Of a stretch of 45,858 bases of DNA, positions 14,800 through 33,500 are shown piece after piece; the first letter of the stretch is position 1; each line of letters begins with the position of its first letter. The position numbers were made by a program, and so were the translations under genes. This DNA is from Chiloscyllium plagiosum (Eukaryota), in assembly GCF_004010195.1 (NCBI RefSeq), contig NC_057754.1:4120916-4166773 (forward strand). The letters run 5' to 3'. The notes under the pieces are model-generated. The model saw only the letters and a program-made list of their open reading frames with translations. It did not search any database and was not told the DNA's origin.

Positions 14800-15391
14800 A
14801 GCTATACATAGAACAGTCGATCTTGCGTAATTACACCGGCACCACTGCCCACCTCTTCCTCCGCTACATTGATGACTGCATTGGCGCCACCTCATGCTCC
14901 CGCGAGGAGGTTGAGCAATTCATCAACTTCACCAACACATTCCACCCTGACCTTAAATTTACCTGGACCATCTCTGACACCTCCCTCCCCTTCCTGGACC
15001 TCTCCATCTCCTTTAATGACGACCGACTTGACACTGACATTTTCTACAAACCCACCGACCCACAGCTACCTGGATTACACCTCTTCCCACCATACCTCTT
15101 GCAAAAATGCCATCCCGTACTCCCAATTCCTCCGCCTCCGCCGTATCAACTCCCAGGAGGAGCGGTTCCACCATAGAACACACCAGATGGCCTCCTTCTC
15201 TAGAGACCGCAATTTCCCTTCCCACGTGGTTAAAGATGCCCCCCAACGCATCTCATCCACATCCCGCAATTCCGCCCTCAGACTCAACCCCTCCAACCGC
15301 AACAAGGACAGAACGCCCATGGTGCTCACCTTCCACCCTACCAACCTCCGCATAAACCAAATCATCCGCCGACATTTCAGCCACCTCCAAA
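14800..15391 (+). mobile_element. Penelope-like element (Neptune-type) reverse transcriptase fragment, 5'-truncated and frameshifted
   Basis: FLRYIDD catalytic motif, LPFLDL and FYKPTD; after a frameshift near 15059, HSYLDYTSSH..CKNAIPYSQFLRLRRI, typical of the PLE RT thumb. Confidence 0.9.
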
Positions 15392-16100
15392 NNNNNNNNN
15401 NNNNNNNNNNNNNNNNNNNNNNNNNNNNNNNNNNNNNNNNNNNNNNNNNNNNNNNNNNNNNNNNNNNNNNNNNNNNNNNNNNNNNNNNNNNNNNNNNNNN
15501 NNNNNNNNNNNNNNNNNNNNNNNNNNNNNNNNNNNNNNNNNNNNNNNNNNNNNNNNNNNNNNNNNNNNNNNNNNNNNNNNNNNNNNNNNNNNNNNNNNNN
15601 NNNNNNNNNNNNNNNNNNNNNNNNNNNNNNNNNNNNNNNNNNNNNNNNNNNNNNNNNNNNNNNNNNNNNNNNNNNNNNNNNNNNNNNNNNNNNNNNNNNN
15701 NNNNNNNNNNNNNNNNNNNNNNNNNNNNNNNNNNNNNNNNNNNNNNNNNNNNNNNNNNNNNNNNNNNNNNNNNNNNNNNNNNNNNNNNNNNNNNNNNNNN
15801 NNNNNNNNNNNNNNNNNNNNNNNNNNNNNNNNNNNNNNNNNNNNNNNNNNNNNNNNNNNNNNNNNNNNNNNNNNNNNNNNNNNNNNNNNNNNNNNNNNNN
15901 NNNNNNNNNNNNNNNNNNNNNNNNNNNNNNNNNNNNNNNNNNNNNNNNNNNNNNNNNNNNNNNNNNNNNNNNNNNNNNNNNNNNNNNNNNNNNNNNNNNN
16001 NNNNNNNNNNNNNNNNNNNNNNNNNNNNNNNNNNNNNNNNNNNNNNNNNNNNNNNNNNNNNNNNNNNNNNNNNNNNNNNNNNNNNNNNNNNNNNNNNNNN
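15392..16100. other. Assembly gap (709 N) inside the Penelope-like element
   Basis: Run of N. Confidence 1.
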
Positions 16101-21744: not shown

Positions 21745-23245
21745 GACTAAAAGACATAGGCCAAATGGCCTACTTTTGTTCCTATCAAATCAGCTCAGCT
21801 ATTTATTAAGATCATGGTTGGTCTTATCATTTTCAACTTCGTTTTCCTGCCTGTTCCCCATAACCCTTGACTCCCTTACTGATTAACAATTTAGCTCAAC
21901 TATGAACATTTCAAACAAACCACATCCTTCTAGAGTAATTAGTATTGGCCTGACCTACACAACTTCTCATAAGAAAATCCTTCAATACCTGAGATCAACT
22001 ACTGAATCTTCTCTGGACTCCCTCCAATGACCTTTCCTTAGGTAAGGGGACCAAAACTGTTCACAGTATCCCAGGTGTAGTCTAACTCATGCTTTGTCTA
22101 CATTTAGCAAAATTTCCCTTCTTATACAGCAGGTCTAGCAGCATCTGTGGAGACAAAGCTGAATATAAGTTTCAGGTCCAGTGACCCCTCTTTAGTTCTG
22201 AAATATTGATTCTGCTTTCTGTCCATAAATGCTGCCAGACCTGCTGAGTTCTATCCAGCAATTTCTATTTTTGGTTCTGATGTCCAGCATCTGCAGTTCT
22301 TTGTACTTTTCCCCCCTATTTTATACTCCATACCTTTTGAAATAAGGTTCAGCATTACAGTAGCCTTCAATATTACCTGCTCACTTGTACTGCATGCGAG
22401 CTTCTTTGTGATTCCTGAATGATGACCCCCAAATTCCTTTGGTTTGCAACTCTCTGCGGTCTTTCTCCACTTAAATAATATTCAACTCCTCTATTCTTCC
22501 TGCATAACCTCACATTTTTCCACACTATATTCCAGCTGCCAAATATTGCACACTAACTTAATCCATCTATATCCCTCTGTTCACTTTGTGGCATCCTCAC
22601 AAATTGCCCTCTCACCTATTTTGTTCATCCAAAAATGTGGCTACAGTACATTCACTTCTATCATCCAAGTCATTAATATATATTGTAAATGTGGCCCCAA
22701 CCCTGATTCCTATGGCATTCCACTGGATAAAGTTTGCCATCTTTCTTTAAAAGACATTTTCTTCTTTTTACCTGGAGGTGCTATTGCATTCAACTCAGCA
22801 ACTTTCCCACCATAAAATCACTGTGACTTATTTTGTTATTTTAACTACTAACCACCAGCAATAATCACCCATGTAGCCAATTAAATATTTAAAAGCAAAG
22901 CCTATTATGGGCAAAGTGAACCATCAAACGTGAGGGGTGGGTAGGGAGAAAGGGAAAGGAATAAACAAAAATGGGTTTGGAGGGGTAAATAATGTAGTGT
23001 ATCTCCTGCAGTTCCCACACCTTTCTAAAGGCATCGACACCACGTGCTCCCTCTCCAAAGACACCCAAACAGGAACATAACCATGGGAGGTTGCTATCTT
23101 GAAAACTTCCCCTCTCTTTAAACCAATTCTCTTGTTTTCTATTAGTTAGCCAATCCTTGATCCATGCTTTGTCTACCATCTCCCATCTCCAATAACATGG
23201 CTCCTAATTTATTAAATAATCTTATAAACTGTACCATATCAAAGG
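21745..23245 (-). mobile_element. Degenerate, interrupted CR1 LINE fragments (RT and 3' tail)
   Basis: Reverse strand gives CR1-like WIKDWLTNRKQ and GMP*ESGLGP segments and a 3' tail (ccccataacccttgactccc on +). Confidence 0.7.
22127..22305. mobile_element. Short inverted-repeat element related to Penelope termini, inserted in CR1
   Basis: Arms cagcaggtctagcagcatctgtgga / tccataaatgctgccagacctgctg; ends in ccagcatctgcagt; hammerhead-like core on - at 22169-22195. Confidence 0.65.
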
Positions 23246-24422
23246 CATTTATCAAGGATTTTATAGTACAGCATTTTGAAAGCAGTGGCAGAATCAGACA
23301 GAGTCAGCATAGATTCGTGAAAGGGAAATCATGCTTGACAAATCTGCTGGAATTCTATGAAGATGTAACCAATGGAGCTGACAATGGGGAGCCAGTTGAA
23401 GTGGTATGTTTGGACTTTCATAAAGCATTTGACAAAGCCATGCATAAGAGATTATTGTCAAGATTAAAATGCATGGAATTGGGGGATGTGTATTGAGATG
23501 GGTAGAAAACCGGGTGGCAGAGAGGAAACAAAGAGTAGGAATTAATGGGCTCTTTCAGTTTGGTAGGCAGTAATGAGTGGAGTACCACAGGGATCAGCAC
23601 TAGGATCCCAGCTGTTGACAATATATATTAATGATTTGGATGAGGGAACAAAATGTAACATCTCAAAGTTTACAAATGATACCAGGTGGGGTGGGAGGGT
23701 GAACTATGACAAGGATGCAGAGATGCTTCAGCATGATCTGGACAGATTGGGTGAGTGGGCAAATCAATGGCAGATACAGTATAATTTGGATAAATGTGAG
23801 ATTATTCACTTTGGAAGCAAAAACAAGAAGGCAGATTGCTACCTGAAGGGCTATAAATTGAGAGAGCGGACTGTGCAGCAGGACCTGGGTGACCTTGTGG
23901 ACTAGTTGCTGAAGGTAGGGATGCAGGTGCAGCAGGTGGTAAAGGAGGCAATGGTAGGTGAGCCTTCATTGCAAGAGGTTTCGAGTAAAGGAGCAGGGAT
24001 GTTACAGTTATACAGGGCGTTGTGAGGCTGCACCTAGAATATTGTGTGCAGTTTTGGTCTCATTTATAGAGGAAGGATGCTATTGCTCTTGAGGGAGTGC
24101 AGCGAAGGTTTACCAGGCTAATTCCAGGGAGGGCGGGACTGATGTATGAGGAGAGATTAACAAGGTTAGGATTGTTTCCACTAGAGTTCAAATGAGTGAG
24201 GGGGGCTCTCATAGAGACTTATAAAATTCTAACAGGACCAGACAGGATAGATTCAGGGAGGATGTTCCCAATGATGGGTGCATCCAGAACCAGGGGTCCC
24301 AGTCTGAGATTCCATTTAGGACAGAGATGAGGAGATATTTCTTCACTCGAAGAGTGGTGGGCCTGTGGAATTTATTGCCACAGGAAGTAGTTGATACCAA
24401 AACATTGAATGTATTCAAGAAG
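23246..24422 (+). mobile_element. CR1 LINE ORF2 RT domain, decayed
   Basis: SQHRFVKGKSCLTNLLEF, LDFHKAFDK, SGVPQGSALG, IYINDLD, KFTNDT (degenerate FADD); frameshifts and stops. Confidence 0.93.
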
Positions 24423-26790: not shown

Positions 26791-27169
26791 ATGGCCAATC
26801 AGGTCTGGTTCCTTATTGAGTATACAGAAAAAAGAGCCAAAGCTCACATCCTTGATGCTAAACTGACAATCATACATACTAGTGGAATCAGGCCCTGTTG
26901 TGATACTCACTCTGGTAAAACAACTTGTGCCCACACCATTGTGACTTGACAGTGATCACTGGATAGCATATGTCAATAAAACCCCACACCCCAGCAAGAG
27001 TTGGCAAAATCAAGACAGTGAGGGAGAAAACAGCAAAGTTTATTTTTTTGTTCAGCTAACATGGACTCCATTTCGACACAGACTCTGTATACATACAAGA
27101 ACAGCGTGGTGGCATCCTGCACTTTGCATAATCCAGACTGACCTGTCTCAGGGTATGCTGTCACTCAGG

Positions 27170-27550
27170 GTATGCAGTGTTCTCTCTGCATCAGAAATTC
27201 ATGGGTTCATGTCCTTGAACCCCATAATCTGGGTTGACATTCCCTAGTGCCATTATGAAGAGAGTCCTGAATTCTTGGAGGGGGTCATTTTTGGAAAGGA
27301 TATTAAACCTTTCTCAAGTTCCCACAGCCACTCTTTCAGTATGGAGCCAGGGAGTTTTCAGCTGTGCACTGGTCCAATACTTATCCTTTAACCAACATTA
27401 CTAAAATAGATTGCAGTCTGTAGAATCTTGGTGTACAGAGTTGGCTGCCATATTTCTGAAATTATAACAGTCACAATACCTCAAGTAAAGTACTTCGTTA
27501 GCTGTTAAGTGCATTGAAACAATCTGAGGTTGTGAAAGGCACTAGAACAC
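27170..27550 (+). mobile_element. Deu-domain SINE (SacSINE1-like), degenerate
   Basis: ttatcctttaaccaacattactaaaa, ttggctgcc, aagtacttc, tgaggttgtgaaaggcacta tail. Confidence 0.7.
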
Positions 27551-28344
27551 AATTCCACTCTTTGAAAGACACCACAAAACTTGCTGCATTCAATTTACTA
27601 ATTATATTTTTCCTGCTAAATACAAGAAGGGGGATATAGAAGAGGAATGCAGGAGACAGACAGTTGAGAATAGAGAGAAAAAGACGACAGGAGTAGAGAT
27701 GTTGGGAATGCACATTCATTACTGATTGATCAGGACTGTTCTTTCAATCCTGCAGCAGGGGTTAATAAGATGTGCAGCTTTATGGTAATACAAGAGAGCT
27801 TGGAATGGATGTGTGTCTGTTGGGCCCTTGTCCACATGAGCCAGTCCCTGGGGGTGGGGGACGGAGGAGTTGCAGGGGAGGGTGGTTGAACAGACTGTCG
27901 TACAGCCTCTAGCCAGATGCAAATCAGCCAAAACACACAGGAGGGATGAAAGAGGTCGTGTGCCATGCAGACTTTTTATTGTGTGTGTGTGTATGTGTGC
28001 GCATCAAAGCAGCACTCCATTTAATCGTCTCTCCTTAAGCCATGGCAAAGTGAGGGTCTTGTAAACACTTCTAATCGACCAGACTCTCATGTTTGAGGTT
28101 GTTGAGCTGTTTCATAGGTTATAAGATTCCCTCCACCCCCAACCAACCCCATCCACTGCCTTGTGTCCCACTGTATTTACTGACAAATTAAATCCACATA
28201 AATAAAATTTATTTTACTGCCAGGCTTATTCAAATTCACTATCCATGCCCTGTGTCTAATGGAGTGACAGGATATATTTACACTTCACGGGGTGAGGATG
28301 GGGGTGGAGGGCACTTGTAGAATCTTGATATGCACACAACAAAA

Positions 28345-28695
28345 GAAAGTCTTTTATTTAGATAGTGCATTTCATAACCTCAGGATGTCCCAAAGCGCTT
28401 TACAACCAATGAAGCAGCTTTGTTTCTGGATGCGTGGCTGCTCTTGCAGTGTAGGAACTGTGACAGTCAATCTGCATACCACAAACTCCCACAGTGATGT
28501 GATAATAACCAGATAATCTGTTCTTGGTTGAAGGATAAATATTGGCCCCAGGACACTGGGGAGGACTCCCTGCTTCTCTTCCAGTAGCGGCATGGGATCT
28601 TTTACGTGCATGTGTTGGGGGCAGGCCTTGGTTTAACATCACATCCGAAAGATGGCACCTCCAACAGTGCAGCATTCCCCGAGCACTGTCACTGC
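28345..28695 (-). mobile_element. Deu-domain SINE (SacSINE1-like), best preserved copy
   Basis: Reverse strand: gaatgctgcactgttggaggtgccatctttcggatgtgatgttaaacc...gtaaaagatcccatg...cattggttgtaaagcgctttgggacatcctgagg. Confidence 0.82.
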
Positions 28696-29099
28696 TTGGA
28701 TTGCTTCTGAATTGAGGCTTGAGCCCATGATCTCAGAGTGGAAGACAGAGAAATCAACAAATTCATTCATAGACAATATATTTCGATATTTATCTTATTT
28801 TTCTTTGTGAGTTCAAGTTGACTCTTTTGCAATCTCTAATAAGACTTTTTTTGTCACCTTATGGAATGTCTGGTACTTGTTTCATAACAGAATTGTACAT
28901 GAATGGTGCAAGAATGAATTGAATACAGCATTGGGGAGAGATTTCAGTACAGACTTTATGGGCTGCTGTCAAGCCCATTTGAGACACACAAGTCTTCTCG
29001 AATTCAAAAGTAAATCAGAATGCAGTCTTGGGTTGGGCTAGACTTGTATAGGATCCATCTGCCCTGCTAAAGTATTCTGAGCTTACTCTCTCTTGCTGT

Positions 29100-29560
29100 T
29101 CAGACCCAGGAGGTCATGGGTTTGAGTTCCACTTCAGAGGTCTGAGGATGCAGGGTGTGCTGCATCGTAGGAGATGCAATCTCGTAAATAAGGCATTGAA
29201 CCCAGATCTCCTCTACCTTCTCAGACAGATGTAAAACATATCTATCACACTAAGAAGAGCAGGAATTCTCCCAGGTGTGCTGGGATAAAGCACTTTTCCC
29301 TCAACCAACTTCATGGAAAGAAAAAAAATATAGAAATTGCTGAGTAAGCTCATTAGATCTGGCAGCATCTGTGAAATCACAGTTAACATTTTGGGTCAAG
29401 TGATGCTTCCTCAGAGCAAGCTGGGGGATCTTGCTGTGCACAATATGGTTAACATGTTTCCTGCACTTCTACAGTGAACATGATGCAAAAGGACTTAATT
29501 GGCTATAAAACACTTGCGAGACATCCTGAGGTGGTGAAAGGTGCAGCATAAATGCATTTT
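29100..29560 (+). mobile_element. Deu-domain SINE with a nested Penelope-terminus fragment (~29330-29416, -)
   Basis: Colinear with the 28345-28695 copy; central part interrupted by gaaattgctgagtaagctc..tctggcagcatctgtg..ttcctcagag. Confidence 0.7.
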
Positions 29561-30029
29561 TCCTCCAATCACACGATAAAATGTTTTCTCTTTGTGCCTA
29601 GAATGTTCTGGAAGCCTAACTTTATCATGTCCAGAGTTTTTTTTTTAATCCTTCCACAGGATGTACACCACATTGGCCTAATGCTCGTCCATTCCCCAGC
29701 TGCCCGTAAGTTAATGCTGAGCAACCTTCTTGAACTGTTGCAGTCTATGTGATGTAGGTGCACTCAGTGCTGCTAGGAAAGAAGTCTTACAATTTTTACG
29801 GACTGACTGTGAAGAAAGTGCCAATATGGTTGCAACTCAGGATGGAGTGTTGCCTCTCATTAATCAACTCTCACGTTTTGGATAAAAACAAAAAAACTGC
29901 AGGTGTTGGAAGTCTGACACAGGCTAATCAGGGATGGGTGGATTACAAAATGGTGGTGAACAACCACAGGAAAGGATCTTAAAGGGATCTTGGCTTGAAG
30001 GTTAGGAGGGAGGCAGTGATGTGAAGTGA

Positions 30030-30220
30030 ATTTGATTTAATTTGTTTTCACATGTATTTAAGTACAGTGAAAAGTTTTGTTTTGCCTGTAGTACAGGGAG
30101 ATCATAATATACAAGGTCTTACAGATCATAGGGTGTTTAAACAGAGCGAGGCATACAAGGTTACAGTTGCACAGGAGGTGCACAAAAGCAAGATCAACAT
30201 TAGATTTGAAATTAGAGAGG
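30030..30220 (-). mobile_element. Rex1/Babar-like LINE 3' UTR fragment
   Basis: Reverse-complement homologue of 34010-34203. Confidence 0.65.
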
Positions 30221-30479
30221 TGACAAAAGTTGCTGAAGATTTGAGTGAGGGGTGAGGCAACCAGTTGCCTGAAGTTTGAGCATTCGCTGGAACAGAGTGG
30301 GTCTCTTCCTGATCTTTGCCAGATTCTTAAAAAGGGCCAGCACAGAAAGCAAATTAGGTAACCAACTATTAGTTATTTGACAGTTCAGTGTAAATTATAT
30401 AATTAATGGGATATAAATATAGATTCTTAAAATTTGTCTATCAACCAAAACATTTTCTGAATTTTTTTCTCAAATGTTC

Positions 30480-31255
30480 TCAATATTTATCTCACTCTTT
30501 CTCCAACTATTTCTTCTCTTTCTTTGCATTTGTCAGTCTCTTGCTTGTTTCTTACTGTTCTGTCTTTCTCTTCCTCGCGTGTGATCTCTCCCCTTTCTGT
30601 TGTTCATTTTCTTTCTCCCTTTCTCCATTCCTTAGAAATAAGTCACTCTCTCCTCTCCTTACTCTATCGCATGTCCTTCCTCTCTCTATCTCTTTACTTT
30701 TGTATCTCTCTGTTTCTGGTTGCCTGCCTGCCTTTTCTTGCCCTCTCTGTCAGTCTCTGTGTCAGACTCCATATCTCTGTAAGTCTCTTTTTCTCTTTTC
30801 TCTTTCCTTTCTTTCAGAATGTGCTATCTCAATTTCTCTATTTCCTCTCTCGAACTCAATCAGCCCCCTTCTCTCTCTCTCTCTTTTCTTTCAGACTGTT
30901 TTACCGCCATCTCTGTATTTCACTCTAATTTCGTCAGTCCCTTTCTTTTTCCTTTCTTTCAGCGTGTGTTATCTCTTTCGCTCTATTTCCTCTTTAATTC
31001 TGTCAGTCCCTTTCTTTCGGTGTGTGTAATCTCCATCTTTATTTCCTCTCTAAATCAGTCAGTCCCTTTATCTCTCTCTCCTCTTTCGGTGTGTTATCTC
31101 CATCTTTCTATTTCCTCTCTCTAATTCTCAGTCCCTTTTTTTCTTTTTCTCCTTTCTATCGATGTGTGTTAACTACATCTCTCTATTTCCTCTCTAATTC
31201 TGTCAGTCCCTTTCTCTCTCACTCTCTCTGTCAGTTTCTCTCTCCCGCTCTCGGC
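30480..31255. repeat. CT-rich tract containing a degenerate ~60-75 bp tandem repeat (about 6 units, 30815-31230)
   Basis: Recurrent ctatttcctct..taatt..gtcagtccctttct..gtgtgttatctc. Confidence 0.8.
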
Positions 31256-31439
31256 TTTGTGTGAATCAGACAGCCTGGGGTCTCAAGTCTGATCTGTTGC
31301 AAACAAAAGAGCCACAGAGTTGGCTCGGGCGCATTTGGAGACGCGAAGGGACCTCTTTCCATCTCCCCCCCCCCCCCCCCCAGAAGGAGGCCTCTTCTCT
31401 CTCTCTATCTTTCTTTCCCTGCCTCTATTGAATTAGGAC

Positions 31440-31690
31440 AAAGCCCCGGCACGTGTGCTATGAATAGGAGCAGGACAAAAAGAGCAGGCCGGACGTGTGG
31501 CTCCCTTATAGTCATTTACATAATGGGGAGCAAACACGCGTCAGAACAGGTACATCTGGCGCCTCCTGGGAGACTCGACAGTCCCTCTTGGATCAGATTA
31601 CCCTCTTTGTCTGATTGGTTCTTCATCTCAAGCCATCTGCTTGAGATGGACCAGACAATGGGATCTTGCAGCCTTTAAATAGCCCGAACA
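31440..31690 (+). promoter_or_regulatory. Probable proximal promoter of the INSM gene
   Basis: CACGTG 31450, ATTTACAT 31514, CACGCG 31535, CATCTG 31553 and 31634, inverted CCAAT 31614, TATA-like TTTAAATA 31674-31681; CpGs retained. Confidence 0.65.
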
Positions 31691-31842
31691 GTGCGGCGAT
31701 TGAACAGTTCCAAAGTGGGAAAGATTGCTGCTTTTGCTCACGCTCCTGTTCTCCCTGGCAGCACAGAGTACAGTGCTCACTTGCAGGCTGCTGGGTTTTT
31801 TTTTGTTGTTGGTTTGACAAGACACGAACTTCCTGAGCCAAG

Positions 31843-32982
31843 ATGCCCCGAGGCTTTCTGGTGAAGAGAACCAAGAGAGCTGCCCCTGTCTCATACAGGG
31901 TACGCAGCGTCGAAGAGGAATGGGGCGTTCCAGAGGCAGTGCCGTCCCTATGGGGGCAGGGGAGGGCCTCTCTACATCCCACCTCCTCCACTGACATTAG
32001 GCCGGGATACTGTGGAGTGCCAAGCTCCCCTTGCGCCCCGGACCGCAGCCCTAACCGGCCAGTCAGCAGTTGCCCTGGCTCCCCAGGTCGGCCAGGCAAT
32101 TCCAGCTCGCCTATCCTGGCGGAATCCTTCCCCAGCCCCTTGGCTCTGGCTTCGTCGCTGGGACGAGCGGTCTTCGTGGCCTCGGTGTCAGATGAGGAGG
32201 TGAAGATGGGCTCCAATTGTACCAGCATCCAAGCGGTCAAGAGGCAACTGCCTCCGGCCAAAGCCAAGGTGCAGAGCAAGAAGCCTAGGGCGGACAGGAA
32301 GCCTTACAGGGACGAGGTGACCACTTCACCGGTCTTGGGGCTAAGGATCACCAAAGAGCTGACGGACTATCAGCAGCACAAGAGCTCAGGTCAGCCCCTG
32401 GGTGAGTTCATCTGCCAGCTGTGTAAGGAGGAATACGCCGACGCCCTGTCCCTCGCCCAGCACCGGTGCTCCAGAATCGTCCGGGTGGAGTATCGCTGCT
32501 CCGAATGTGACAAGGTGTTCAGCTGTCCGGCCAACCTGGCATCTCACTGCCGCTGGCACAAGCCCAGGAACCCCAGCGGCCTGCAAGCGCAAGAGGGGGC
32601 CAAGGAGAGCAACAAGAGCAAAGCCAGGAGTGAGGAGCAGCCGGCCAGCCCCTCAGGCCGGCCTTGCGAGTCGCCTAGCCTGGAAGAAGAGCTGTTCGAC
32701 TGCCCGCTCTGCGGTAAGAAGTTCCGTCGCCAAGCCTACCTCAGGAAGCACATGGCCACTCACCGAGGCTCCATGCTGCTGTCAGGCGGCCAAGTGTACC
32801 TCCAGCGGCCCCAGAGGAAGCCTGACGTTAGCTCGCACTCAGGACTCGCCTGCTCAGGTTCTGATGGGCTCCCTGAGGCATCCTTCTCCCCCTGCCAGGT
32901 CCTCAGCAATGGCAAGTGTCAGCCCTTGGAGAACAGGCAAGTGATGCTGCTGCAGCTGTCCACGGCGCCGGCGGTGATGTGA
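31843..32982 (+). CDS. INSM1: Insulinoma-associated (INSM1/INSM2-family) SNAG-domain zinc-finger transcription factor, intronless, 379 aa; exact paralogue uncertain
   Basis: N-terminal SNAG MPRGFLVKR..PVSYRVR; DEVTTSPVLGL; fingers FICQLCKEEY..AQHRC, YRCSECDKVFSCPANLASHCRWH and FDCPLCGKKFRRQAYLRKHMATH; C-terminal ENRQVMLLQ; purine at -3 (AAGATG). Confidence 0.95.
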   Translation: MPRGFLVKRTKRAAPVSYRVRSVEEEWGVPEAVPSLWGQGRASLHPTSSTDIRPGYCGVPSSPCAPDRSPNRPVSSCPGSPGRPGNSSSPILAESFPSPLALASSLGRAVFVASVSDEEVKMGSNCTSIQAVKRQLPPAKAKVQSKKPRADRKPYRDEVTTSPVLGLRITKELTDYQQHKSSGQPLGEFICQLCKEEYADALSLAQHRCSRIVRVEYRCSECDKVFSCPANLASHCRWHKPRNPSGLQAQEGAKESNKSKARSEEQPASPSGRPCESPSLEEELFDCPLCGKKFRRQAYLRKHMATHRGSMLLSGGQVYLQRPQRKPDVSSHSGLACSGSDGLPEASFSPCQVLSNGKCQPLENRQVMLLQLSTAPAVM

Positions 32983-33500
32983 AACGAGGGCGGAATCGAA
33001 ACATAAACTCCGAAACCCCATCACCCGGTCTTGGTCTTATTTATTGTGTGTGTGTGAGAATGAAGAATAAAGGAACTTCCAAAATAACGCGAATAAAACA
33101 GTCTCGAAACGAGGAGAGGGAAGCAAGGGCAAAGTTCACTAGCCTGGTACTTGTAACAGTAAAATGGTTTAAATACAAAGTATAATTTATATAAGTTATT
33201 TATATATTGCTTTTTTTGTTAATCTTATATGTATATAGAATGCTTTTTTTGTACAAGATCTTCCTATAACTGTTTAGAAACTTTTTTTGTCCGGTTGGGG
33301 TGGGTTAACAAAAGAGTAATTTTTTGTACAGCTGAATTTTGTATTTTTCTCAATGATTGAAAGTGACATTTGCGCCTCAACAAAAACGGAAAGTTTATAT
33401 TCTCTTACGGTTTGCGAAGGGACAGCTATCACCTGTCACAGCTTTCAATGTTGTTTATTCCTGAGGTGTTTCAAATAAAATGTCAAGACATCCGTTTGCG
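32983..33500 (+). promoter_or_regulatory. AU-rich 3' UTR with polyadenylation signals
   Basis: AATAAA at 33066, 33092 and 33474; TGTATATA (Pumilio-type) at 33230-33237; two TTTTTGTACA motifs. Confidence 0.6.

What the first reader, a model, noticed from the sequence alone, without database searches (positions are those of the whole stretch)
31843..32982. Three-finger INSM protein: fingers 4-5 lost in frame, terminal ENRQV motif kept; possibly a distinct cartilaginous-fish paralogue
Seen: an intact ORF with SNAG, DEVTTSPVLGL and three fingers. After finger 3 there are only ~50 residues, with no C2H2 pattern, before KCQPLENRQVMLLQ. Known: vertebrate INSM1/INSM2 have five fingers and INSM1 ends its fifth with KCHPSENRQVILLQ, whereas Drosophila Nerfin-1 and C. 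elegans EGL-46 have three. Inference: fingers 4-5 were deleted or decayed while frame and tail stayed under selection. The N-terminus mixes INSM2-like (KRTKR) and INSM1-like (PVSYRVR) residues, so this may be a third ohnologue rather than a true INSM1 or INSM2.
Basis: partly seen in the sequence, partly recalled or inferred. Interest (0 to 1): 0.75.

Follow-up and report, generated by a model that had tools for sequence, protein, structure and literature searches.

The report
Hidden third INSM gene, three fingers
This is an intact third copy of the INSM nerve and endocrine repressor gene, shared by sharks, coelacanth, salamanders and early-branching ray-finned fishes, which likely arose in the early vertebrate genome doublings and has since lost two of its five zinc fingers in sharks.

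Summary
The 379-aa ORF has a SNAG start, three fingers and an ENRQV tail; contigs of 5 of 8 sequencing runs cross the finger-less stretch without an indel. The genome holds four INSM loci: five-finger INSM1 (C9) and INSM2 (C10), each near RalGAP-type and FOXA genes, this gene (C45), and a two-finger copy (C41). In trees this gene forms a third clade (100/99) with coelacanth, salamander, caecilian, bichir, paddlefish, gar and tarpon proteins; a shark-only duplicate of INSM1 or INSM2 is rejected (AU p<1e-13). So it is not cartilaginous-fish-specific. Neighbouring gene families on C9, C10, C45 and C41 fit genome-doubling paralogy. Finger 4 is missing across the clade; finger 5 decayed in place in cartilaginous fishes. 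The tail is only partly constrained: it is frameshifted away in lamniform sharks and a catshark. Likely a SNAG/LSD1 co-repressor; two TEAD-contact residues of finger 1 are changed. Databases call orthologues 'INSM1a-like' or 'INSM2-like'; I found no paper naming the clade. Expression is not shown.

The parts
31843..32982 (+). Single-exon ORF, 379 aa, third INSM paralogue ('INSM3', my label)
   Evidence: tree
31843..31869 (+). SNAG motif MPRGFLVKR
   Evidence: aligns to the N-terminus of the human INSM1 chain in PDB 3ZMS
32311..32343 (+). Conserved INSM block DEVTTSPVLGL (aa157-167)
   Evidence: 99% identity in 9 elasmobranch orthologues
32413..32469 (+). Finger 1, CCHC type; human TEAD-contact residues P279/F280 are A201/L202 here
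32497..32559 (+). Finger 2, C2H2; DNA-contact positions C228 and N231 kept
32701..32763 (+). Finger 3, C2H2; DNA-contact positions R296 and Y299 kept
32764..32871 (+). Low-conservation spacer where finger 4 is absent; low model confidence
32872..32913 (+). Eroded remnant of finger 5 (PEASFSPCQVLSNG), lacking the zinc-ligand pattern
   Evidence: alignment; profile test (not above shuffles in this protein; above all 100 shuffles in 3 of 11 cartilaginous-fish proteins)
32914..32955 (+). Retained C-terminal INSM tail KCQPLENRQVMLLQ
   Evidence: (16.7 bits, 0 of 100 shuffles as high)
31674..31681 (+). TATA-like box upstream of the ORF (candidate promoter; untested)
   Evidence: contig starts at 31651-31715 in runs X9, X10, X15
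33474..33479 (+). AATAAA, candidate distal polyadenylation signal
   Evidence: contigs of X9, X10, X15 and X5 end at 33461-33492, X1 runs on to 33613; weak hint only

Best explanation
This is an intact, conserved third INSM gene of jawed vertebrates that likely arose in the early vertebrate genome doublings, has lost fingers 4 and 5, and is predicted to act as a transcriptional co-repressor through its SNAG motif and fingers 1-3. Shown: the clade, the four loci in this genome, the finger counts and the conservation of the core. Inferred by parsimony: finger 4 was lost before cartilaginous and bony fishes split, and finger 5 then decayed by point changes in cartilaginous fishes (and separately in caecilians), leaving the ENRQV tail as a partly constrained remnant. 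Inferred from human INSM1: SNAG recruits the LSD1/CoREST repressor complex, fingers 2-3 bind DNA weakly, and finger 1 docks on partner factors such as TEAD. Losing fingers 4-5 would cost little because they barely bind DNA and have no known function. TEAD binding may be weakened, because two of five crucial finger-1 residues are changed. A role in neural, sensory or endocrine precursors is assumed from the family and was not tested.
For: Four INSM loci in the genome with E<=2e-20; the next hit is 1e-5. C9 and C10 carry five-finger genes that group with INSM1 and INSM2. Third clade: 100/99 under LG+G4 on 40 rows, and 100/99 under LG+C20 with everything after finger 3 removed, where its inner order follows the species tree. 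AU tests reject shark clade + shark INSM1 (p=7e-47) and + shark INSM2 (p=5e-14). Six species have all three types side by side in the tree: this shark, Heterodontus, Latimeria, Lepisosteus, Polyodon and Megalops. Paralogon markers: Rap_GAP hits at C9 91.7 Mb, C10 56.8 and 77.9 Mb, C45 4.08 Mb (70 kb from this gene) and C41 4.21 Mb; FOXA on C9 and C10; Pecanex at C45 3.99 Mb beside the SIPA-type gene, as on C10 and C3; phosphorylase on C9, C10 and C45; VPS9 hits 350 kb from INSM1 and 64 kb from the C41 copy. Purifying selection: fingers 1-3 are 94-96% identical across 9 elasmobranch orthologues, against 41-65% elsewhere. All 8 listed coding differences in a related species' contigs are synonymous; with the 2 amino-acid differences to C. 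punctatum this gives a rough omega of 0.08 (assumes both are the same species). Finger roles are from PMC11880201 (abstract, passages, sections 9 and 13). Only fingers 1-3 are confidently folded in the AlphaFold2 model.
Against: In the 59-row quick tree with the long-branch fourth copies and a lizard protein, the clade's support fell to 22. Its sister group is unresolved: joins it to a hagfish protein and INSM2 (95/93, 98/89), a sister link to INSM1 is not rejected (p=0.116), and one search is unresolved at that level. So the expected 2R pairing is not shown by the tree. Synteny could be tested in this genome only, by Pfam family. The gene names (PCNX3, SIPA1, PYGM, RIN2, RINL) and the match to human 11q13 and 19q13 are recalled. 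No Rel-homology hit was placed on C45, and the third FOXA and one actinin-type hit are on unplaced contigs. Transcription and all molecular functions are untested for this protein.
Confidence: 0.85

Rival explanations
1. The clade is real and pan-jawed-vertebrate, but it arose by a small segmental duplication or transposition of INSM1 or INSM2 in the gnathostome stem rather than by whole-genome doubling; it would work the same way.
For: The tree does not resolve which paralogue is its sister. No RalGAP-type or FOXA neighbour was placed on C45.
Against: C45 carries its own copies of Pecanex, SIPA-type and phosphorylase genes that are paralogous to those on C10, C9 and C3. A fourth INSM copy lies on C41 beside VPS9, SIPA-type, actinin-type and Rel-type genes. 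Four copies on four paralogous chromosomes is the 2R pattern.
Confidence: 0.07
2. The gene is a decaying ohnologue on its way to loss, with little or no current function; finger loss reflects relaxed selection.
For: Repeated finger loss; tail frameshifted in 3 of 15 cartilaginous-fish proteins and altered in 2 more; long Callorhinchus branch; no frog, lungfish, bird or mammal member among the 67 hits.
Against: The frame is open in all orthologues seen, fingers 1-3 are 94-96% identical across sharks and rays, and substitutions are mostly synonymous.
Confidence: 0.05
3. It is a cartilaginous-fish-specific duplicate or retrocopy of INSM1 or INSM2.
For: The gene is intronless, and its best ten hits are all cartilaginous-fish proteins or an unnamed member of a skate cluster.
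Against: The other three INSM loci are single open frames too. AU tests reject both groupings. Bony-vertebrate orthologues share clade-specific N-terminal blocks.
Confidence: 0.02
4. The missing fingers are an assembly error, or lie in a downstream exon that is spliced in.
For: The window has an assembly gap (N run at 15392-16100) and is repeat-rich.
Against: Independent contigs cross the junction with no gap or joint, 15 of 15 cartilaginous-fish orthologues agree, and no finger 4-5 sequence lies nearby.
Confidence: 0.01

Closest known systems
INSM1 (human IA-1; zebrafish insm1a/b; C9 locus here)
   Same: SNAG start, DEVTTSPVLGL block, CCHC finger 1, fingers 2-3 with the same DNA-contact residues, ENRQV tail.
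   Different: Five fingers against three here; separate clade; other chromosome and neighbours; finger-1 P279/F280 are A/L here.
INSM2 (C10 locus here)
   Same: Same family layout; SNAG and fingers 1-3.
   Different: Five fingers in 116 of the 123 proteins counted in that range; separate clade at 100/100; lies 0.1 Mb from a RalGAP-type gene.
RefSeq/UniRef 'insulinoma-associated protein 1a-like / 1-like / 1b-like / 2-like' models in sharks, rays, coelacanth, bichir, sturgeon, gar, eels, salmonids, newts and caecilians
   Same: These are the orthologues. The window's own protein is already a public gene model (name withheld).
   Different: The automatic names are inconsistent and do not mark them as one separate paralogue.
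Drosophila Nerfin-1 and other invertebrate INSM proteins with fewer fingers
   Same: Reduced finger number; Nerfin-1 finger 1 binds Scalloped/TEAD (PMC11880201 passages). Three fingers in Nerfin-1 is recalled.
   Different: Convergent: amphioxus and echinoderm INSM have six fingers and lamprey five, so the shark state is a derived loss.
Hidden ohnologues and loss-prone ('elusive') genes on gnathostome microchromosomes
   Same: Fast-evolving, patchily retained, on a small chromosome (C45 is 13.7 Mb). The general trend is in PMC10208646 (passages).
   Different: That paper and its four supplementary text files do not mention INSM.

Membership tests
INSM/Nerfin/EGL-46 family | N-terminal SNAG motif | tested here: met
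   MPRGFLVKR, aligned to the human INSM1 N-terminus
INSM/Nerfin/EGL-46 family | CCHC finger 1 followed by finger 2 with CPANLASH | tested here: met
   (8JPY, E 2e-31)
INSM/Nerfin/EGL-46 family | Represses transcription via LSD1/CoREST and partner factors | not testable with these tools
   inferred from motifs only
INSM1 orthologue | Five zinc fingers | tested here: not met
   three fingers
INSM1 orthologue | Groups inside the INSM1 clade | tested here: not met
   AU p=7e-47 for grouping with shark INSM1
INSM1 orthologue | Lies near RIN2, RALGAPA2 and FOXA2 (gene order recalled) | tested here: not met
   that arrangement belongs to the C9 copy
INSM2 orthologue | Groups inside the INSM2 clade | tested here: not met
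   AU p=5e-14 for grouping with shark INSM2
INSM2 orthologue | Lies near RALGAPA1 and FOXA1 (gene order recalled) | tested here: not met
   that arrangement belongs to the C10 copy
2R ohnologue | Duplication predates the cartilaginous/bony fish split | tested here: met
   clade holds both groups in species-tree order
2R ohnologue | Lies in a block paralogous to those of its sister genes | tested here: met
   Pecanex, Rap_GAP and phosphorylase families shared by C45, C10, C9/C3 and C41; this genome only, family level
2R ohnologue | Tree of the four copies shows two pairs | tested here: inconclusive
   sister links unresolved
2R ohnologue | Same neighbourhood in bony-vertebrate orthologues | not testable with these tools
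   no other vertebrate genome is held
TEAD-binding INSM finger 1 | Crucial residues I268, L271, P279, F280, A283 (PMC11880201 section 9) | tested here: inconclusive
   3 of 5 kept; P>A and F>L in 14 of 14 elasmobranch proteins. Each change alone occurs in other natural INSM proteins. Binding not measured.

The most novel reading that the evidence does not exclude
Sharks keep all four genome-doubling copies of INSM as a natural deletion series with 5, 5, 3 and 2 fingers. The three-finger copy has specialised: its finger 1 (PF to AL) has lost or retuned TEAD binding, and the ancient ENRQV tail works as a cofactor motif independent of finger 5, giving a distinct repressor for a neural or sensory cell type of fishes and amphibians that most amniotes lost.
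Probability: 0.25. Interest if true: 0.65.

Novelty: new member of a known kind. Interest (0 to 1): 0.45.

Why it matters
INSM1 controls neuroendocrine, hair-cell and neuron differentiation, and the vertebrate family is treated as two genes. An unnamed third gene in sharks, sturgeon, gar, eels, salmon, coelacanth and salamanders means that 'insm1a-like' labels in expression and single-cell data of these animals may point to the wrong paralogue. The one Insm tree I found listed no shark and left out the sterlet and paddlefish copies of this gene. A 2025 structure paper says the functions of fingers 4 and 5 are not known. This lineage lost them stepwise while keeping fingers 1-3 nearly unchanged, which gives natural deletion variants to test, and a natural variant of the TEAD interface. 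Hidden ohnologues of this kind are a familiar class, so the surprise is moderate.

Tried and rejected
Expression: no RNA holder listed. The two raw single-cell RNA runs gave 0 reads from about 2% and 6% of their letters, which is no test. Contig ends near AATAAA 33474 are a weak hint only, since those runs are not on record as RNA. Uncovered flanks at 36.4-39.1 kb in X1, X10 and X16 prove nothing. The Sds3/BRMS1 family search rang nowhere, controls included. The Rel-homology search placed nothing on C45. The profile search with the clade alignment timed out, so the range of the clade rests on top-120 lists, one N-terminal search (67 hits of 652 candidates) and cluster look-ups; absence from frogs, lungfish, birds, mammals, zebrafish-type and spiny-rayed fishes is not shown. 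The idea that the electroreceptor-enriched sturgeon 'Insm2' of PMC10982350 is really this gene was rejected as unlikely: none of its listed accessions is a four-finger protein seen here, and the primer frame gave no exact match but resembles a five-finger Acipenser INSM2. Retention does not track electroreception, since eels, tarpon, smelt and salmonids have it. My prediction that the gene is sister to INSM1 was neither recovered nor rejected. A finger-4 profile gave weak scores on bony-fish members, probably from finger 5; I did not check where the hits lay. Literature searches: 'insm3' gave 0 papers; insm1+insm2+coelacanth gave 0; searches listed no title or abstract on a third INSM paralogue (listings only). 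Subscription journals and gene-tree databases were not searchable.

Full report
Observation. The ORF at 31843-32982 (+) encodes 379 aa with a SNAG start, DEVTTSPVLGL, a CCHC finger (aa191-209) and two C2H2 fingers (aa219-239, aa287-307). Fifty residues separate finger 3 from KCQPLENRQVMLLQ, and no other finger pattern occurs in six frames at 28-40 kb. Pfam finds only C2H2 families above cut-off. Fingers 4-5 of this genome's INSM1 and INSM2 find no detached match in the window, and in the genome they match strongly only at their own loci (150 of 3403 candidates scored). Of 8 public runs laid on the region, contigs of 5 cross the finger-less stretch without an indel, one covers it with short flanks, and two raw RNA runs gave no reads. 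An AlphaFold2 model is confident only at fingers 1-3; residues 314-379 are below pLDDT 50.

Copies in this genome. The protein is 99% identical to a Chiloscyllium punctatum model, so the genome is a bamboo shark by inference. A search with fingers 1-3 gave four loci with E<=2e-20 and then nothing better than 1e-5 (150 of 3288 candidates scored): the window (C45, 4.15 Mb), C9 (five fingers), C10 (five fingers) and C41 (SNAG plus two fingers). C9 groups with INSM1 and C10 with INSM2.

Relatives. The first homologue search (best 120 of 1471) ranks ten cartilaginous-fish proteins first, then newts, coelacanth, sturgeon, bichir and tarpon, ahead of ordinary Insm1. These share N-terminal blocks such as CAPSxSPNRPV and NSSSPxxAESFP. 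A profile of that region scores 26 clade proteins at 61-119 bits, 22 of which built it, and the next protein at 47. A search with the coelacanth N-terminus added three caecilians and gar (67 hits of 652 candidates), and cluster look-ups added sterlet, beluga, mormyrids, smelt, salmonids, eels, Arapaima and Scleropages. In a chosen set of 36 named members, 15 of 15 cartilaginous-fish proteins have three fingers; 18 of 21 bony-vertebrate proteins have four (1, 2, 3 and 5) and the three caecilians have three; none has five. No frog, lungfish, bird, mammal, zebrafish-type or spiny-rayed fish member appeared in the 32-protein clade of a 388-protein FastTree, but the searches are capped, so absence is not shown.

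Phylogeny. On 40 rows (19 of 59 curated rows dropped: the long-branch fourth copies, a lizard protein, an oyster and near-redundant rows), IQ-TREE LG+G4 gives three clades: this one 100/99, INSM1 100/99 and INSM2 100/100. With every protein cut after finger 3 and the LG+C20 mixture, the clade is again 100/99 and splits into cartilaginous fishes versus lobe-finned plus ray-finned fishes. AU tests reject a shark-only duplicate of INSM1 (p=7e-47) or INSM2 (p=5e-14). A sister link of the whole clade to INSM1 is not rejected (p=0.116), and one to INSM2 with the hagfish protein excluded is borderline (p=0.048). Against: with all 59 rows in the quick tree, long-branch rows fell beside the clade and its support was 22. 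The order among paralogues is unresolved.

Synteny, in this genome only and by Pfam family. INSM1 on C9 (91.44 Mb) has VPS9 at 91.09, Rap_GAP at 91.7 and FOXA at 94.2 Mb. INSM2 on C10 (56.70 Mb) has Rap_GAP at 56.8 and FOXA at 58.8 Mb. The window gene has a SIPA-type Rap_GAP gene 70 kb upstream and Pecanex at 3.99 Mb, a pair repeated on C10 and C3. Phosphorylase genes lie on C9, C10 and C45. The C41 copy has VPS9 64 kb away and SIPA-type, actinin-type and Rel-type genes within 2 Mb. From recalled human gene order these are the 20p11, 14q13, 11q13 (PCNX3-SIPA1-PYGM) and 19q13 (ACTN4-SIPA1L3-RINL-RELB) paralogons. No Rel-type gene was placed on C45, and some markers sit on unplaced contigs. Four copies on four paralogous chromosomes are best read as a full set from two genome doublings.

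How the fingers went. Amphioxus and echinoderm INSM have six fingers and lamprey five; the two hagfish proteins have four. Finger 4 is missing throughout the clade, so it was likely lost before cartilaginous and bony fishes split. Finger 5 decayed in place: Heterodontus PVKPCPETSFSSCPVLSRDVNGKCHP aligns with sturgeon YPCRFCSEKFFSSPGLTRHINKCHP, having lost the first Cys and first His, and bamboo and whale sharks carry further short deletions there. A finger-5 profile scores above all 100 shuffles in 3 of 11 cartilaginous-fish proteins but not in the window's. The tail profile does so in 8 of 11, and a finger-4 profile in none. The tail core is 81% identical in six tail-keeping orthologues against 34% for the spacer, so it is under some constraint. 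It is dispensable, though: the ends of the Cetorhinus, Carcharodon and Scyliorhinus proteins match the +1 frame of the window's DNA, which points to a shared frameshift, and Rhincodon and Stegostoma have altered it.

Selection and expression. Fingers 1-3 are 94-96% identical across nine elasmobranch orthologues. All 8 coding differences listed for a related species' contigs are synonymous. Adding the 2 amino-acid differences to C. punctatum gives a rough omega of 0.08 (p=3e-4), if these are one species. Contigs of four runs end at 33461-33492, around AATAAA 33474, while one runs on to 33613. This is a weak hint of a transcript of about 1.8 kb; transcription is not shown.

Mechanism (inferred). 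PMC11880201 (abstract, passages, sections 9 and the first part of 13) reports that human INSM1 finger 1 binds TEAD1, fingers 2-3 bind DNA weakly, fingers 4-5 barely bind DNA and have no known function, and SNAG mediates repression. LSD1/CoREST as the SNAG partner is partly recalled. This protein keeps SNAG and the DNA-contact positions of fingers 2-3, so it likely still acts as a co-repressor, and the loss of fingers 4-5 would be tolerated. Of five finger-1 residues crucial for TEAD binding, three are kept; P279/F280 are A/L in 14 of 14 elasmobranch proteins and P/L in 17 of 17 bony members, while 178 of 208 five-finger proteins have P/F. A/F and A/L also occur among invertebrate proteins. TEAD binding may therefore be weakened or merely tolerant of change.

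Novelty. The gene models exist under inconsistent automatic names. 'insm3' is in 0 papers, and searches listed nothing on a third paralogue. The one Insm phylogeny found (PMC10982350; passages of the preprint and supplement table rows; tree figure not seen) lists 26 proteins, no cartilaginous fish, and not the four-finger sterlet or paddlefish accessions. PMC10208646 (passages and supplement search) does not mention INSM. An earlier AI note of this scan (e1-7814241) described a two-finger fourth copy in another genome, which agrees with C41 here; I had found C41 before reading it. Verdict: a real, apparently unnamed third INSM ohnologue of jawed vertebrates with stepwise finger loss. It is a new member of a known family, in the familiar class of hidden ohnologues. 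Interest 0.45.

Noticed in passing
L004:1051-2121 (-); G000:C41:5.02 Mb: Fourth INSM copy, 356 aa, SNAG plus fingers 1-2 only. Relatives in Rhincodon, Heterodontus and Pristis. Neighbours fit a fourth paralogon. Tree position unresolved; weakly sister to INSM2 at 59/44.
   Followed up: partly
protein P0328 (Phrynocephalus forsythii): A two-finger lizard protein falls inside the third clade (100/99; grouping with INSM1 or INSM2 rejected, p=0.004 and 0.007) on a very long branch. Its sequence after finger 2 looks like a shifted frame of finger 3. It may be a relic of this gene in an amniote, or a model error.
   Followed up: partly
proteins P0385, P0347, P0388 (caecilians): Caecilian orthologues independently lost finger 5 and the tail, giving a second three-finger form.
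   Followed up: partly
proteins P0421, P0362 (hagfish): Both hagfish INSM proteins seen have four fingers, so finger loss recurs in this region of the family; the Eptatretus protein's tree position is unstable.
   Followed up: no
L003:838-2250 (+); G000:C10:56.70 Mb: The shark INSM2 is on a long branch and is named 'INSM1a' in several shark databases.
   Followed up: no
   Followed up: no
window 27000-31740: Contigs of runs X1, X10 and X5 cover stretches upstream of the gene; this could be DNA, repeats or an upstream transcript.
   Followed up: no
window 14872-15390 and 23164-23905: ORF fragments that look like pieces of retroelement reverse transcriptase or endonuclease genes (recognised from memory, not searched).
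   Followed up: no
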